From NCBI GenBank assembly GCA_951406725.2, contig OX597818.1, forward strand, positions 84,754,001 through 84,818,000: a stretch of 64,000 bases of DNA, given 5' to 3'. Origin of the DNA: Octopus vulgaris. Lineage: Eukaryota. Of the stretch, positions 1 to 36,000 are shown piece by piece. The position numbers were made by a program. Each line of letters opens with the position of its first letter. Within the stretch, counting starts at the first letter, position 1.

Positions 1-3000
1 GTAATTCAGAAAGATAATGTTGATTTCAACAAAGACAGCAAAAATTAGAATACAGCTCTTTTACTTATTTCAGTCATTTTAGACGAAGAAATCGAACCCC
101 AAGACTTATTCTTTGCAAGCTGGGCACTTATTCCATCGGAAATAAAGAAACGAACATCGGTTGCCAAGCGATGTTGGGTGGGATAAGGACAAACACAGAC
201 ACAAACACACACACACATATATGGCACCCGTCGTATATATGTATATATATATATATATATATATATATATATATATATATATATATATACATACATATAT
301 ACGACGGGTTTCTTTCACTTTCCGTCTACCAAATCCACTCACAAGGCTGTGGTCGGCCCGAGGCTATAGTAGAATACACTTGCCCAAGGTGCCACGCAGT
401 GGGACTGAACCCGTATTCTAATAACATCTTGCTTACACTATTAATGTGATACGTTTTATCTTACCCATTGGACTGTGGTCAATCCCCTCACGAGATATAC
501 TAATAGAATTTATAGTCAATCGTCTTTCATTTGTCACCATATAGTGGACACGGTCAATGTTTTCTTCAGTGGTGGTAGCTGCAGGACGTTCAGACCTTGG
601 GTCATCTTTAAGGCTCCTCTTTCCTCTCCAAATTTCAGCTGCCCACTTTTGCACTGCTGATAAACCTGGAGCAACCATATCAGCATGAACGTCGTTAGGG
701 GCCAAATCTTGAAGGGTGTTTGAACAAATTGCTCCAAGTACTTATTTATCTTAAGTGTGCTACTTGTTCTATCGGTCTCTTTTGCTGAACTGCTACGTTA
801 CGGGGATGCAAACCAAACAAAAACTGATTGTGAAGCAGTGATAGGAGACACACAAACACAGAGACGTTCACACCTATACATATATGCATACGACAAAATT
901 CCGTCGAGGTCGACTTTGCCATCCATCCTTTCGGGGTCGACAGATTAAGTACCAGTCAAGTATTGTGGTCATGGTAATCGACTATCCCACTCCCCACAAA
1001 TTCCAGGGTTTGTGCCAATAATAGAAAGGATATATACATACAACAGACTTTCATAGTTTCCGTGTACCAAGTCCACTCACAAGGTATTGATCGGCCGAGG
1101 ATTATAGTAGAAGACACTTGCCATAACTATCATACCATGGAACTGAACCCAAAACTAAGTTGTTAAAGAGCGAACTTCTTAACCGCAGTCATATTTTTGC
1201 GATAATATTAACGATAATAAATAGAAAAATCAAATTGAAAAGAAAATTTGTCTGCAAGACCAAAAGCGGAATTAGTGCTGCCAAGTGAAGAAATCAAACA
1301 GTAAAACCAAACATAATAACCCCAGTAACAACAATTCTATCTTCACAAAACAATGGTCAAAGAACACAGGCATTGACAGAATAAATAACAGTGCTACAAA
1401 CACCTGTAGATATATGAAATATGCCTAAAGCCAAACAGGTACGCTCTACGTGGTTGTTTGAACTGCCAGAAAAACTAGCCATCTCTCTGTCTCTCCCTCT
1501 CTCACTCCCTATCTATCTATCTATCTATCTATCTATCTATCTATCTATCTGCGGATCTATCTCTCAACTTATAGCACATTGTCTAAAAAGTTAGAAAGAT
1601 ACATTAGGTTATATAGTCCTGGTTCATTCAATAGACGAGGGAAATTCTTTGGATCACAAAATTGCTCCGTAGAGTTAAGCTAGGAGTAAACAACACCAAC
1701 GAATAAAAATGTGCCTTTAGACATGGAGGAAATGCGATAACTTATTTTATGGTATTGGAAACACTAACATATATTGAATGAAGGGATTGTTACAAATAAA
1801 TCTCACATAGGTGTATAAGAGAACGCAGTGATAAGTACTACATAGTGACCAGTATAAAGCTTAGATCTATAAACAAAACTAAAATTTCAATTCTATTCGT
1901 CGAAATGTGCTAGTTGTCATCAGATTAAGCAAACTATTGTTGCAGGAAAATGCTTCGTTAAGTATACTCTCCTTTGGGTGATAAAAAAAAATTAAGGGAA
2001 TCTGACTTCTAGAAACCTCAAAGTAGATTTCTTCAATTGTTTTTTAATATATTAGAATAAAAAATTGTCACCATTTCAGACGACAAAGAAAATGAAAAGA
2101 ACGTACAATATTTCACTCACACGCATAGCACACATACACACACACACACACACACACACACACACACACACACACACACACACACACACACACACACACA
2201 CAGTGACTCACAGATACACACATACATTCAACGTTTCGACAAAAGGACGTTATTCATAAAGCCTAACGCACACGCACGTATACATATATTCAGACACAGG
2301 AACATACACATGCCTGCACGCATACGCACTTTACGTAAAACGTAAAGGAATTCACAGAATAAGTACTAGGCTCACAAACAATAAGTCTTGGGGTCGATTT
2401 GTTCGACTAAAGGTGTTACTCCAGTATGGCCGGAGTCAAATGACTGAAACAAGTTAAAAAATAAAAGAACATATATATATATATATATATATATATATAT
2501 ATATATATATATATATATATGTAGGTCCCGGGTTGAGTCGGAGTTAACCACAGTAAATAAGGTACTCAATACATAGCAGAGTAAATTAATTTATTTTATA
2601 GAAGGATCTTCTACAGGACTAGAACTGTTTCATTCAAATGAAATCATCAGGAAGCTTCCTGATGATTTCATTTGAATGAAACAGTTCTAGTCTTGTAGAA
2701 GCTCCTTCTATAAAATAAATTTTATATATATATATATATATACATACTGACGTGTGTGTGTGTGTGTGTGTGCAAGCATAGGGGTATGTGCGCGCGTGCA
2801 ATGTTTTGTTTTTCTCACAGCGATGAGGTCATTGCCCTATTATCGAATGGCTTGTGGGTCATATTCTCTTACGAAATCACAGCACGACCGAACACCACTT
2901 CAAGATAGTATTCATTGAACAACCAGAAACAATATTTCTCGATCTCTGACAAATGATGTGAGATTCTTTCATAATTTGAAGAAGTCTACAATTTTCTATG

Positions 3001-33000: not shown

Positions 33001-36000
33001 TTGTGTTTGTCTTTGAATTTCAAGATGTTCAGGAGTTCTACACAACATAGTTGGCATCCTGCTCTATTATTTAAATAAGGTGCAGCTGATCCGATGATGG
33101 ACCACCTGAGTTTGAAGCCTATGCATTTGTCTTTTAATTCCCAAATTCTTTTAGAAAGGGAGGTGCTGTTAGCCTTATGTCTGTGTTTCAGCGAGGACCG
33201 GTGGTTGTAGTATCTGGATTTCCAGGAGGTTGAGCAACCTATGTAGGTGAGTGTGTTAAACTGGGTACTCACCTCACATGAATATATTACGTTTTTCGCC
33301 CTACATGCGCCCTGCAGCGGGCACTCTGATGCACATCTGCAGTTGCATTGCATTGCATTATTCGGTCGTGTGCTGCTAATCCCAGGCGGAGGTGTTGCAA
33401 TACGAGTGGGGGCGTTGATATCCTCCTGGTTGTTGATGGGTGTAGTATTTCCTCTGTTGTGTTGGCGGGTGTTATTACTAACTGTTTGGGTAGTATGGCT
33501 GCCAGTCTGGTTATATTGTCTACTATCTAGATGAGGGGGGTTCTGTTGGTCGCTATAGTTTGCTCTTGATCTAGCTGTTCTAATATTAATATAGTTATGT
33601 TTAGCTATGAGGCAGCTCATGTTGGGCAGGGTAGAGTAGGAAATCCTAATGATTTTGTTGGAGAAGATACTTCTATACTTGTGGGTGGGTGGGAAGTTGT
33701 TGGAACATTGTATTTCTTATTTTATACTGTATTTCTTACTTTTATTTCTAATTTTTACCCTTACCCTCATTCTTACCCCTAACTTATCGCTTTACATCTC
33801 TATATATGTCTATTTTTTTTGCTTATCCCTTATTTACTTACCTATGGATCCACTTTATGATTATACGAGCATCCGTGTACGTATGTATACGTATACATAT
33901 ATGTACATATGTACGAGTAAACATCTACGTCTGGATGTACATACCCCGTATTTCTTTTTTTTACATGTTTTCTTATATTCATATGTTTACACCTATTTGT
34001 ATACATCTTTTAATATCTTATAGCTATACCCATATGCGCGTATGTCTCTGTGTGTGTATGTAAGTGTATATGTGCACGCACATATGGACACACAGCCGTG
34101 TGTGCGTGCACGTGTAGACGTGAGTGCGTGATTCTTTACATACGTTCTTATATACATCCTTTAATATCTTATATCTAAACCTGGAAGCGTGGGCATATGC
34201 GTATGTGTATGTAGGGATGGGCGCACGTATGTACATATGGGTGTGTACACGTATAGTGTCCGTGTATACATGCGGATATTTCGTTGTATGTATGTATATG
34301 TACGCGCGTGCGTGTGGGTGTGTGTGTGTTTATGTACATGTTTACACTCGAGTGCGTGTGTATGCTTATAGGCTTGGAGGCGTATATGTACGCGTGTATA
34401 TGGGTGTATGTATCCATGATGGTATGTATGTACTAGATGACCAATTAATTCAAAGAACCAGATTAAACGCTCAACAGCTCTGATTTACAACACATTAGGT
34501 CCCCAGACGAAACTGTTGATTTATTGACACCCAAAACTTCTACAACTAAATTTTATCAATCTCCTGACCACCATGTTTGGTCCGTAACCTCTATACATCC
34601 CTTATCTTTATATTTTTTTATATTTTTTTACATTTTTATCATGTTTATTCCTATCTTTATTTTTTTACCTTTTACTTTTATTTCTATTTCTATTTTTACT
34701 TTATAACCTTATGCCTTTACATTTATTTATATTTCTTTATATTTCTTTATATTCTTTATACCCCCTTTATATCTCCTTATATCTCTTTATATCTTTATGC
34801 TCTGCATTTTTATATTTTTCTATACTTACACATTTTATACATTTTTTATCCCTCGTCCTGAATTCTCGCCCCTCCATCTTCACGTCTATATATGTATTCA
34901 TTTATTTATTTACATTACTTCAACATCCAAATTTCCTCATTCTACATTGAGAGAAGAAAGAGATGGACGCTTCAGTTCTATGCTGCTGCCGCATTATGTC
35001 GTACGCGAATGAGAGGATTTGCATCCCCAACCAAGAATTTTTGATGTAACACATGTCCTTGTGGAAGCTGTTGTGCGCGGCTGAAGAAGGCCACAGACAT
35101 ACATTATGCATTGTTATAAATCTGTCTAATAAAGGCCCGAAACATATGTACCGCTGAATCCTTCGCATCATGTTTTTATTTTGATCAATTTACTCCACTA
35201 CCTACACCACCAAACGGTATACACAGGTGCTTATAATTATCAAGTACTCACCCCGAATTTCTATATATATATATATATATATATATATATATATTTGTAT
35301 GTATATATATGTATATATATATATATATATATATATATATATATATATATATATATATATATCACAGAACAATTAAACAATTTGCCACAATTACCTCCCT
35401 TCACAATACACTTTATACACTGCAGAAAATAGGTTTAAACTAATTTCGCTCACCTTCTCCCTACTCTCTCCCCTTTTCTTCACCCCTCTCTCTATTTCAC
35501 CCTTTCTCTCACCTTTATAATGATTTATTTTTTATATGTTTTTTTAACTAATTGGTCCTATTTTTTTAACTGAATATTTTAGTTACGTGTACAGACTCAC
35601 CATTTTTTCTTGTCGTTGTTTCTACTGTTGTTGTTTCTTTTTACTGTTTTTTTTTTCGGCGGAACTCAAGAGGTATAAAATATACAATATTAATGAAAAT
35701 TCAAAATTATTATTTAATGTTACCATGGCAATGGACTGCCTTATAATCTACTATGATTTCCATAGAGATCACAATTTCAGCATTTCATTCAGCTACAAAC
35801 ATTCCAGGCTTATTTTTATCACCCCTGTATTTTTGTTAATATATTTCTCTTTTCTTTTCTTTTTATTGATTAAATTTTATTTTTTTTTTATTTATTTATT
35901 TTAACACATTACTTCGTTTATTTTTATTGATTTTTCATTACGTTTTCATAGTTTTATTTTTAAAATATTCTCTCTTTCTTTTTTCCCTCTCTCTCTCTCT

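What the first reader, a model, noticed from the sequence alone, without database searches (positions are those of the whole stretch)
2521..35261. One architecture at five scales: inverted repeat + short one-sided tail nested in (TA)n
Seen: the same layout occurs in unrelated sequences at 12469-12568 (23-bp arms), 2521-2721 (67-bp arms), 21027-22322 (~470-bp arms) and 30961-35261 (~1.3-1.5 kb arms), plus a 12-bp fold-back at 30220-30253. In both large cases the 41-71 bp tail lies on the outer end of the inverted (upstream) copy. Known: PLEs form inverted pseudo-LTRs with tails, and some clades prefer microsatellites. Inference: the tiny hairpins are minimal products of the same fold-back integration mechanism, so PLEs act as a genome-wide generator of hairpins.
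Basis: partly seen in the sequence, partly recalled or inferred. Interest (0 to 1): 0.75.

Follow-up and report, generated by a model that had tools for sequence, protein, structure and literature searches.

The report
Penelope-like retroelement insertions inside TA repeats
The large inverted repeats sitting in TA microsatellites are ordinary truncated insertions of Penelope-like retrotransposons in their textbook layout, and the tiny hairpins beside them may be the smallest products of the same process, though that could not be proven from this window alone.

Summary
All five structures exist as described, and each abuts (TA)n on both sides.

- **The two large ones are ordinary 5'-truncated Penelope-like element (PLE) insertions.** 21027-22322 encodes the linker and GIY-YIG endonuclease end of an RT-EN protein, 72-90% identical to longer PLE-type proteins. 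30961-35261 encodes that of a Hydra-clade-like PLE: CxCX5C, no CCHH.
- **The layout is already published.** An inverted truncated copy, a longer direct copy, a one-sided tail and a (TA)n target are described for PLEs in PMC8557442.
62945-63506 has a centre with a complete type-I hammerhead motif. 55374-56842 is a PLE copy with no inverted partner.
- **The two tiny hairpins remain unproven.** With 23- and 67-bp arms they fit the layout and share short 3'-end motifs with the PLEs (p about 0.01-0.02, and null-dependent). They are single-copy in the window and carry no PLE hallmark. Genome-wide copy number could not be tested.
- **The 12-bp fold-back is a different thing.** It is a snap-back of the end of a ~190-bp SINE-like repeat across (TA)6.
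- **Other hairpin sources exist here.** At least one MITE also supplies an inverted repeat.

This is known biology with a modest extension.

The parts
2471..2520 (.). (TA)25 tract left of E2. It follows a SINE copy at about 2356-2470.
2521..2587 (-). E2 one-sided tail, 67 nt. In sense (minus) orientation it starts AATTTACTC.
2588..2721 (.). E2 hairpin. Arms 2588-2654 and 2655-2721, 65 of 67 complementary, no loop. (TA)n follows at 2723-2742.
12421..12468 (.). (AT)24 tract left of E1
12469..12522 (.). E1 hairpin. Arms 12469-12491 and 12500-12522, 23 of 23 complementary, loop CTTTTAAA.
12523..12567 (+). E1 ATATATA plus a 38-nt unique tail. (TA)n follows at 12568-12636.
21027..21067 (-). E3 tail, 41 nt, on the outer end of the inverted copy. 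(TA)n lies at 20961-21026 on its left.
21068..21536 (-). E3 inverted 5'-truncated PLE copy, 469 nt
21537..22320 (+). E3 direct 5'-truncated PLE copy. The open frame 21532-22059 holds a CX4CxxC linker and a GIY-YIG endonuclease, followed by the 3'UTR. (CT)11 lies at 22321-22341 and (TA)n at 22342-22388.
30038..30230 (-). E5 body: a ~190-nt SINE-like repeat. A second copy at 46369-46553 is 89.6% identical. In both copies the (TA)n-abutting end is on the left, and both stop at ...ATCATGGCGAA.
30231..30255 (.). E5 (TA)6-7 spacer plus an 11-nt inverted copy (TTCGCCATGAT) of the repeat's end. (AT)28 follows, to 30309.
30688..30933 (.). Older second copy of the hammerhead-bearing family. Antisense part 30688-30862, 58-nt sense 3' end 30876-30933, abutting (TA)14 at 30934-30961.
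30962..33704 (-). E4 direct 5'-truncated Hydra-like PLE copy. The open frame 33716-32922 holds a CxCX5C linker and a GIY-YIG without CCHH, with CxxC before the conserved E and CxH after the conserved N. The 3'UTR is about 1.96 kb and rich in tandem repeats.
33705..35190 (+). E4 inverted (upstream) 5'-truncated copy, 1486 nt
35191..35261 (+). E4 tail, 71 nt. AATTTACT spans the arm/tail junction. (TA)n follows at 35262-35362.
55374..56842 (+). E6: a third, degenerate Hydra-like PLE fragment with no inverted partner. It ends at (TA)n 56843-56878.
62945..63506 (-). E7: TA-nested inverted repeat not in the finding. Arms 62945-63117 and 63334-63506, no tail. A decayed TA run lies at 62927-62944 and (TA)n at 63507-63535.
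63169..63251 (-). Type-I hammerhead motif in the centre of E7. Helix I is CGGUUA/UAACCG. CUGAUGA follows, then helix II GGAUUU/AAAUCC, then GAAA, then helix III ACC-UAUA-GGU. Cleavage would fall after GUA (63175|63174).
   Evidence: not detected by Rfam

Best explanation
The window holds several insertions of endonuclease-bearing Penelope-like retroelements (PLEs) into (TA)n microsatellites.

Proposed mechanism. The element's GIY-YIG nuclease cuts the TA tract. Reverse transcription of the element's RNA is primed near its 3' end, and is often primed from both cut strands. The two cDNAs then run towards each other, giving an inverted repeat with the 3' ends outward. How far each cDNA gets (its 5' truncation) sets the arm length. 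Use of two alternative start sites leaves a short tail on one side only.

What each feature is:
- E3 is a family with a CX4CxxC + CCHH endonuclease.
- E4 is a Hydra-clade-like family.
- E7 is a non-coding, hammerhead-bearing family.
- These three are clear products of this process, with arms of 469, about 1400 and 173 nt.
- E1 and E2 (23- and 67-nt arms with 45- and 67-nt tails) are most likely its extreme short end. There the second arm was made by an early switch onto the first cDNA, or by snap-back.
- E5 is not part of the series. It is a snap-back copy of the last 11 nt of a SINE-like repeat across a self-pairing (TA)6.

Shown here: the anatomy, the PLE identity of E3, E4 and E6, and the hammerhead motif in E7.
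Taken from the literature: both-strand cleavage and extension and internal start sites, shown in vitro for one vertebrate PLE.
Inferred: that E1 and E2 were made by a PLE.
For: **E3**
- Its ORF is 90% identical to P0001 and 72% to P0002. P0002 is 659 aa, with Pfam RVT_1 at E 1e-7, GIY-YIG at E 6e-4, and a DKG motif.
- The ORF itself scores Pfam GIY-YIG at E 0.0044.

**E4**
- Its ORF matches P0003 at E 1e-25 and P0004 at E 8e-15.
- It shares CNCRxxxxC, VIY...YIG, CxxC-E and N-CxH with them.
- P0003 aligns colinearly with the PLE protein P0002 over about 430 aa at E 3e-6.
- These are the Hydra-clade traits listed in PMC8557442 section 11, which also says almost all Hydra families insert into (TA)n.

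**Layout**
- An inverted 5'-truncated copy plus a tail at one end is Fig. 2 and the text of PMC8557442 (passages).
- The tail as the stretch between two internal RT start sites, with both strands cleaved and extended, is in PMC11167929 (passages).

**Spread of PLEs in the window**
- tblastn with the four proteins finds PLE coding remnants only at E3, at E4 and at 55374-56312.

**E7**
- My motif scan found 2 candidates on both strands of the window. One has all three helices and the full core.
- The MFE fold reproduces the three-way junction.
- A short helix III with a palindromic loop is typical of metazoan HHRs, and PLEs carry HHRs (PMC4209133 passages).
- The second copy of this family has a short arm of about 58 nt.

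**E1**
- Its best match among 101 TA-tract flanks is E3's tail-bearing 3' end. Only 5 of 2000 random windows score as high.
- E1 and E3 are 2 of only 3 flanks, out of 106, with an isolated (AT)3-4 followed by a clean 25-50-nt tail.

**E2**
- AATTTACT occurs 6 times in the window. Three of those sites sit at the arm ends of E2, E4 and E7, all in sense orientation.
- In a shared-8-mer test, 3 of 2000 sets of random windows reach this, and 48 of 2000 sets of AT-matched windows.

**E5**
- The second copy stops at the same base.
- It is the only one of 123 TA runs with flanks complementary over more than 6 nt.
Against: - E1 and E2 have no other copy in the window, no ORF and no ribozyme. One search gives Hammerhead_HH10 at 17.9 bits against a cut-off of 75. 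One search finds nothing there.
- The sequence links are weak and depend on the null:
  - The junction-anchored sum of scores is reached by 1 of 400 random sets. It is reached by 13 of 500 TA-flank control sets, and by 26 of 500 after masking TA runs.
  - In a TA-anchored banded test, E1-E3 ranks 93 of 1653 and E2-E4 ranks 366 of 1653.
  - E2 against E4's 3' end is reached by 388 of 2000 random windows.
  - A TA-flank control for the 8-mer test was uninformative, at 684 of 1000.
- The motifs were noticed before they were tested.
- The geometry differs. E3, E4 and E7 have long unique centres. E1 and E2 have loops of 8 and 0 nt, which any snap-back would also give.
- The E2 and E4 tails (67 and 71 nt) are about twice the published 30-40 nt.
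- No hammerhead was found in E3 or E4, although Hydra PLEs are reported to have one.
- Rfam does not detect the E7 hammerhead. Its folding energy is unremarkable: z = -1.76, with 13 of 200 shuffles folding as well.
- E2's tail holds a tRNA B-box-like CCCGGGTTGAG on the strand opposite to the predicted sense.
Confidence: 0.6

Rival explanations
1. E1 and E2 are short retro-copies or other DNA fragments that acquired their second arm by polymerase snap-back or template switching, unrelated to PLEs. One route is during insertion of a SINE-like RNA, as in E5. Another is during replication or repair of fragile, self-pairing (TA)n tracts. On this view the 'tail' is simply the part that was not copied back.
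For: - E5 shows that such a snap-back happened in this window at the end of a non-coding ~190-nt repeat.
- In E1 and E2 the tail-less arm is wholly contained in the tail-bearing copy, with loops of 8 and 0 nt.
- Many retroelement families here end at (TA)n.
- The similarity of E1 and E2 to PLE ends is not robust.
Against: - Only 1 of 123 TA runs shows E5-type flank complementarity.
- E5 has a TA loop. E1 and E2 have none.
- The arm ends of E1 and E2 fall where PLE-like motifs sit: ATATAT plus tail as in E3, and AATTTACT as in E4 and E7.
- A snap-back of random length does not predict that.
Confidence: 0.2
2. E1 and E2 are miniature DNA transposons (MITE or foldback elements) that target TA. 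They happen to lie next to short unique islands within TA tracts.
For: - The window holds a MITE with a TA target duplication, 41226-41431: TA|CAGGGTG...CCCTG|TA.
- It also holds a 259-nt-arm inverted repeat nested in (ATT)n at 47628-48193.
- Mariner-type transposase remnants are present.
Against: - There is no target-site duplication at the hairpin ends of E2, and none can be read for E1 inside TA repeats.
- The whole hairpin is arm, with no terminal-repeat-plus-core structure.
- An extra unique stretch exactly between hairpin and TA tract would need a second event.
- No second copy lies in 64 kb, whereas the SINE families have 5-7.
Confidence: 0.12
3. The large, nearly perfect palindromes, above all E4 with 865 nt of 100% identical arms, are assembly artefacts.
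For: - One search gives 100% complementarity over 865 nt.
- PMC8557442 notes that such PLE structures cause assembly problems.
Against: - The arms are asymmetric (1328 against 1486 nt), with 6 mismatches and indels confined to tandem repeats.
- The 2.7-kb copy is unequal to its partner, the tail is one-sided, and both sides are flush with TA.
- E2 and E3 arms have diverged by 2-3%.
Confidence: 0.03

Closest known systems
EN+ Penelope-like element insertions with an inverted 5'-truncated copy and a one-sided tail (Craig et al. 2021, PMC8557442, Fig. 2 legend and text; Goubert et al. 2022, PMC8969392, passage)
   Same: - A direct 5'-truncated copy is preceded by an inverted 5'-truncated copy.
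- A short extension lies at one end only.
- Insertion is into a microsatellite.
- Coding capacity is RT-linker-GIY-YIG.
   Different: - The copies here keep only the endonuclease end and the 3'UTR.
- Two tails are 67-71 nt, against the published 30-40.
- Arm lengths go down to 23-67 nt in structures that carry no PLE hallmark.
Hydra clade of C-terminal EN+ PLEs (PMC8557442, section 11)
   Same: - E4 and E6 have a CxCX5C linker and no CCHH between GIY and YIG.
- E4 has CxxC before the conserved E and CxH after the conserved N.
- Both insert into (TA)n.
   Different: - No hammerhead was found in E4.
- The 3'UTR is about 1.96 kb, whereas Hydra elements are described as under 3 kb overall.
- The RT traits (DKT, RWK) could not be checked in the truncated copies.
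Neptune/Nematis-type PLEs (C-terminal EN with a CX2-5CxxC linker and CCHH; PMC8557442 passages)
   Same: - E3 has CGRPNCATC ahead of GIY-YIG, and C-x2-C between GIY and YIG.
- The longer relative P0002 has DKG, RVT_1 and a C-terminal EN.
   Different: - The clade was not resolved, because no tree was built.
- No hammerhead was found in the retained 3' part.
Hammerhead-bearing non-autonomous PLE derivatives (retrozymes, HHR-SINEs; PMC4209133 passages; bioRxiv 10.64898/2026.07.22.740005, abstract only)
   Same: E7 is non-coding. It carries a type-I hammerhead with a 3-bp helix III and the palindromic loop UAUA. It sits in the PLE inverted layout at a TA tract.
   Different: - It is a single inverted pair, not a tandem array.
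- Loop 2 is 41 nt.
- It is not recognised by the Rfam hammerhead models.
LINE-1 twin priming / 5' inversion, and quasi-palindrome template switching (recalled, not read here)
   Same: An inverted segment is created at a retro-insertion junction by a second priming or a strand switch. E5 looks like this.
   Different: - In E1-E4 and E7 both arms start at the element's 3' end and face outward.
- Twin priming gives an inversion of the 5' part instead.
TA-targeting MITEs (Stowaway-like)
   Same: Inverted-repeat DNA inserted at TA. One clear example lies in the window at 41226-41431.
   Different: - MITEs have terminal repeats plus a TA duplication and no one-sided tail.
- E1 and E2 are hairpins over their full length, with a tail.

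Membership tests
EN+ Penelope-like elements (E3, E4) | PLE-type reverse transcriptase in the same ORF as the endonuclease | tested here: inconclusive
   - The window copies are 5'-truncated and hold no RT.
- Their closest longer relatives do hold one. P0002 has RVT_1 at E 1e-7, DKG and GIY-YIG. P0003 has YRDDGL and aligns with P0002 at E 3e-6.
EN+ Penelope-like elements (E3, E4) | GIY-YIG endonuclease with the conserved R, H, E, N and a Zn-finger-like linker | tested here: met
   - E3 scores Pfam GIY-YIG at E 0.0044, below the curated cut-off, and has CX4CxxC and C-x2-C.
- E4 has no Pfam hit, but VIY...YIG, R, H, E, N and CxCX5C align with P0003 and P0004.
EN+ Penelope-like elements (E3, E4, E7) | Pseudo-LTR arrangement: a 5'-truncated copy next to a second copy, here inverted, with the 3' ends outward | tested here: met
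EN+ Penelope-like elements | Optional 30-40-bp tail at one end only | tested here: met
   E3 41 nt, E4 71 nt (longer than published), E7 none.
EN+ Penelope-like elements | Hammerhead ribozyme in the pseudo-LTR | tested here: inconclusive
   - None in E3 or E4 by Rfam at E up to 10 or by my motif scan. Those copies lack the 5' part.
- A complete motif is present in E7, though Rfam misses it.
Hydra clade (E4) | CxCX5C linker, no CCHH, CxxC and CxH around the conserved E and N, (TA)n target | tested here: met
   criteria from PMC8557442 section 11.
Hydra clade (E4) | RT traits: DKT instead of DKG, RWK motif | not testable with these tools
   The RT is absent from the copy. P0003 and P0004 are N-terminally incomplete.
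PLE-made insertion (E1, E2) | Sequence maps to the 3' end of a PLE family and is multi-copy, with the same two termini | not testable with these tools
   - No genome of the organism was on hand.
- Both are single-copy in the window.
- The one open collection gave a single spurious bacterial locus.
PLE-made insertion (E1, E2) | Similarity of the arm/tail junction to confirmed PLE 3' ends in the window | tested here: inconclusive
   - For: (E1-E3).
- Against, or null-dependent: (E2-E4).
MITE (E1, E2) | Terminal inverted repeats flanked by a target-site duplication | tested here: not met
   No duplication at the E2 hairpin ends. Unreadable for E1 inside TA repeats.

The most novel reading that the evidence does not exclude
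PLE integration primed from both strands of a cut TA tract may have no lower size limit. In PLE-rich, TA-rich invertebrate genomes it would then routinely deposit perfect hairpins of 50-150 bp, each with a one-sided tail. These would be too short to be recognised as transposon-derived. They would form a hidden class of PLE footprints, and a steady source of cruciform-prone DNA and hairpin RNA precursors.
Probability: 0.3. Interest if true: 0.55.

Novelty: new member of a known kind. Interest (0 to 1): 0.35.

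Why it matters
For annotation: the two large inverted repeats and the hammerhead-bearing one should be masked as PLE insertions, not read as novel structures.

If the tiny hairpins are confirmed genome-wide as PLE products, three things would follow:
- Repeat annotation would be shown to undercount PLE activity.
- Natural examples would be at hand of the both-strand priming and alternative start sites so far seen in vitro for one vertebrate PLE (PMC11167929).
- A mechanistic source would be named for short perfect palindromes inside TA microsatellites.

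As it stands, the core of the finding is known biology.

Tried and rejected
**Rfam**
- Whole window: only the top 150 of 265 matches were shown. All of those were microsatellite or hairpin look-alikes of miRNA families.
- E3, E4, E5 and E2 regions: no credible hammerhead.

**Mariner-type MITE reading of 62927-63524**
- I first read it this way from a TACAGGGT at its left end. I dropped that once the hammerhead and the decayed TA flank were seen.

**Hammerhead ideas that failed**
- CTGATGA at the centre of E2: no GAAA in register and no Rfam support.
- The GAGC-loop-GCTC-GAAAC block of the E5 repeat family as a hammerhead: no CUGANGA box in any of the 4 copies looked at and no Rfam hit.

**E2's tail as a tRNA-derived SINE piece**
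- The B-box-like pattern has 3 matches against 1.0 expected, reached by 10 of 100 shuffles.
- ARAGORN finds no tRNA.
- Alignment to the window's SINEs is no better than noise.

**Similarity and control tests**
- Overall similarity among the 3' 400 nt of E3, E4, E6 and E7: none.
- TA-flank control for the shared-8-mer test: unusable because of microsatellites and SINE copies.

**Outside the window**
- Scan of genome contigs with the E3 ORF: 85 pattern matches, 1 confirmed, a 32-residue stretch in a bacterial MAG, taken as spurious.
No eukaryotic genome was available.
- Supplementary files of PMC8557442 (family lists, HHR lists) were not opened. They may hold mollusc Hydra families relevant to E4.

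**Literature**
- Two searches found no paper describing sub-100-bp hairpins as PLE products. That covers only the held library.

Full report
**Setting.** The window is eukaryotic, AT-rich (30-45% GC) and crowded with microsatellites: 167 rows from Tandem Repeats Finder. It holds 53 (TA)n tracts with a perfect core of at least 14 bp, 1859 bases in all. It has no N.

**Observation.** Exact arms:

| Feature | Arms | Complementarity | Between the arms |
|---|---|---|---|
| E1 | 12469-12491 / 12500-12522 | 23 of 23 | 8-nt loop |
| E2 | 2588-2654 / 2655-2721 | 65 of 67 | no loop |
| E3 | 21068-21536 / 21852-22320 | 454 of 465, plus small indels | 315 nt |
| E4 | 30962-32289 / 33705-35190 | 1322 of 1328, plus indel blocks of 1, 60, 77 and 20 nt in tandem repeats | 1415 nt |

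- E5 has 11-nt arms around a (TA)6-7 run.
- Tails: E2 67 nt, E3 41 nt, E4 71 nt. E1 has ATATATA plus 38 nt.
- As single-stranded DNA the three small ones fold far better than shuffles. No shuffle of 200 folds as well in any of the three.
- Each structure is flush with a TA tract on both sides.
- The elements are unrelated in sequence.

Two caveats apply:
- In E3 and E4 the tail-less copy is the longer one. In E1 and E2 it is contained in the tail-bearing one.
- E5's arms surround a TA run rather than being nested in one.

**The large elements are PLEs.**
- *E3.* The plus-strand frame 21532-22059 reads CGRPNCATC, then IIYVMKCSGC..YVG, and on to a stop. Pfam gives GIY-YIG at E 0.0044, below the curated cut-off. 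A search among longer proteins gave two hits. P0001 is 326 aa and 90% identical. P0002 is 659 aa and 72% identical, with RVT_1 at E 1e-7, GIY-YIG, an ADKG motif and the same linker. E3 is therefore the 3' end of a PLE with a C-terminal endonuclease of the CX2-5CxxC + CCHH type. The left arm is a shorter inverted copy of its last 469 nt. tblastn sees the endonuclease end on both strands.
- *E4.* The minus-strand frame 33716-32922 matches P0003 at E 1e-25 and P0004 at E 8e-15. It shares CNCRxxxxC, VIY..YIG, CxxC just before the conserved E, and CxH after the conserved N, and has no C-x2-C between GIY and YIG. P0003 carries YRDDGL and aligns colinearly with the PLE protein P0002 at E 3e-6. These are the traits given for the Hydra clade, whose families 'almost all' insert into (TA)n (PMC8557442, section 11 read in full).

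**What is already in print.** PMC8557442 (passages) describes the following for PLEs:
- strong 5' truncation;
- an inverted 5'-truncated copy adjacent to the upstream end, which forms inverted repeats;
- a 30-40-bp tail, often present at one end only;
- (TA)n preference, in Naiads and Hydra.

PMC11167929 (passages) shows in vitro that an Anolis PLE protein cleaves and extends both strands. It starts reverse transcription at two internal sites, and the stretch between them corresponds to the tail. The layout of E3 and E4 is thus the textbook one.

- *E7.* 62945-63117 and 63334-63506 form a sixth inverted repeat. A decayed TA run lies on its left and (TA)n on its right.
- *A hammerhead in E7.* My scan for CUGANGA, then a helix II, then GAAA found 2 candidates on both strands of the window. 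The one at 63169-63251 (minus strand) has every part:
  - a 6-bp helix I, CGGUUA/UAACCG, immediately flanking the core;
  - a 6-bp helix II with a G-C closing pair;
  - GAAA;
  - helix III ACC-UAUA-GGU;
  - a GUA cleavage triplet.
- *Support and doubts for the hammerhead.* The MFE fold gives this three-way junction. Its energy is not exceptional: z = -1.76, with 13 of 200 shuffles folding as well. Rfam reports nothing there at E up to 1. A 6-bp helix I and a short helix III with a palindromic loop are typical of metazoan type-I hammerheads, and PLEs carry hammerheads in their terminal repeats (PMC4209133, passages).
- *A second copy of the E7 family.* An older copy lies at 30688-30933. It is again in inverted layout, and its short copy is only about 58 nt, next to the TA tract that also borders E4.
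- *E6.* A third Hydra-like coding remnant, 55374-56842, ends at a TA tract and has no inverted partner.

PLE insertions into TA tracts are therefore frequent here, and arm length varies from about 58 nt to 1.5 kb.

**The tiny hairpins.** E1 and E2 have no second copy in the window, no ORF and no ribozyme. Because even the confirmed PLE families share no general similarity in their 3' 400 nt, only local signals can be expected.

For E1:
- The tail-bearing copy aligns colinearly with E3's tail-bearing 3' end (CTTTTAAAA .. CCTTC .. TTTC-ATATAT-ATTC.AC.CGTGC .. CAACTT). Only 5 of 2000 random windows score as high.
- E3's end is the best of 101 TA-tract flanks.
- E1 and E3 are two of only three flanks, out of 106, with an isolated (AT)3-4 followed by a clean 25-50-nt tail.

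For E2:
- AATTTACT occurs 6 times in the window, the chance number. Three of the six sites sit at the arm ends of E2, E4 and E7, all in sense orientation.
- An 8-mer shared by three of five elements within 15 nt of the arm ends is reached by 3 of 2000 sets of random windows, and by 48 of 2000 AT-matched sets.

Against:
- With TA-flank controls the junction-anchored score is reached in 13 of 500 sets, and in 26 of 500 after masking TA runs.
- In a TA-anchored test, E1-E3 ranks 93 of 1653 and E2-E4 ranks 366 of 1653.
- E2 against E4 in a gapped alignment is reached by 388 of 2000 random windows.
- One control was unusable.
- All motifs were seen before they were tested.

I read this as moderate support, not proof.

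**E5.**
- The 193-nt island 30038-30230 is a copy of a repeat. A second copy, 89.6% identical, lies at 46369-46553.
- Both copies begin directly after a TA tract, and both stop at ...ATCATGGCGAA. After that the second copy runs into unrelated sequence.
- The 11 nt beyond the (TA)6 in E5 are the reverse complement of that end. The simplest reading is a snap-back: a strand ending in self-pairing TA repeats folds back and copies 11 nt of itself before rejoining the TA tract.
- It is the only such case among 123 TA runs.
- It does not have the PLE layout, in which the arms start at the element's 3' end.
- Whether a PLE mobilises this repeat is unknown. Relatives of it also end at TA tracts.

**Other hairpin sources.**
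- 41226-41431 is a MITE with TA duplications.
- 47628-48193 is a 259-nt-arm inverted repeat nested in (ATT)n.
- 17192-17312 and 18659-18779 is a further inverted pair.
- Of 46 TA-to-TA islands, 8 have a self-inverted score of 44 or more. These are E1, E2, E3, E7, the MITE island, the 17192/18659 pair, and two that I did not examine beyond noting microsatellite content. E4 was not scored because an internal TA run splits it.

**Verdict.** The architecture is real and non-random. For the large elements it is already explained: they are new members of known PLE clades in the known layout. The 12-bp fold-back should be removed from the series.

Noticed in passing
63169-63251 (minus strand): A complete type-I hammerhead ribozyme motif in the centre of a TA-nested inverted repeat (62945-63506). 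It has a 41-nt loop 2 and is not detected by Rfam.
   Followed up: yes
55374-56842 (+): A third, degenerate Hydra-like PLE fragment, found by tblastn with P0003 and P0004. It ends at (TA)n 56843 and has no inverted partner. Its 3' end reads ...CCTTTTCGG-ATATAT-31 nt-(TA)n, like E1 and E3.
   Followed up: partly
30038-30230, 46364-46553, 54290-54467, 51625-51710, 4727-4882: A SINE-like superfamily whose 3' end always abuts (TA)n. It keeps a GAGC-loop-GCTC-GAAAC(G)TT block resembling the 3' half of a hammerhead, but has no CUGANGA box. 51625-51710 is a 5'-truncated copy flanked by TA on both sides, without any hairpin.
   Followed up: partly
290-413, 1030-1150, 4523-4643, 41603-41712, 44271-44394, 50821-50943, 58362-58472: A second SINE family with seven copies in the window, 75-94% identical to the first. 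Several of them abut TA tracts, so many TA tracts here are retroelement junctions.
   Followed up: no
41226-41431: A Stowaway-like MITE: TA|CAGGGTGACCC ... GGGAGACCCTG|TA.
   Followed up: no
47618-48212: An inverted repeat with 259-nt arms (92%) nested in (ATT)n. Its 48-nt centre contains CCCTAACCCTAA. The right arm has a 9-12-nt insertion near its outer end.
   Followed up: no
22321-22341: (CT)11 lies between the tail-less 3' end of E3 and the TA tract.
   Followed up: no
2527-2537 (+): E2's tail holds CCCGGGTTGAG, which resembles a tRNA B box, on the strand opposite to the sense the PLE model predicts. It is not significant on its own: 3 matches against 1.0 expected.
   Followed up: partly
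30310-30353: The flank right of the (AT)28 tract, read on the minus strand, shows the same 'TATATA plus 26-nt tail plus TA tract' layout as E1 and E3. It may be another PLE-type 3' end.
   Followed up: no
17192-17312 / 18659-18779: A 121-nt inverted pair (93%) flanking a 114-243-bp-unit minisatellite at 17868-18495.
   Followed up: no
22463-23034 (-), 42392-42903 (+), 45987-46364 (+), 62015-62527 (-), 7992-8522 (-): Other transposon remnants: a mariner-type transposase piece (Pfam Transposase_1, E 7e-12), a LINE AP-endonuclease piece, a weak RVT_1 piece and a zinc-knuckle ORF. 42392-42903 looked like a transposase in translation but has no Pfam hit.
   Followed up: partly
35191-35261 and 2521-2587: The two long tails (71 and 67 nt) both start with AATTTACTC and carry ACTCA(A/C)CCCG 10-13 nt before the TA tract. 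They may hold two start-site motifs.
   Followed up: no
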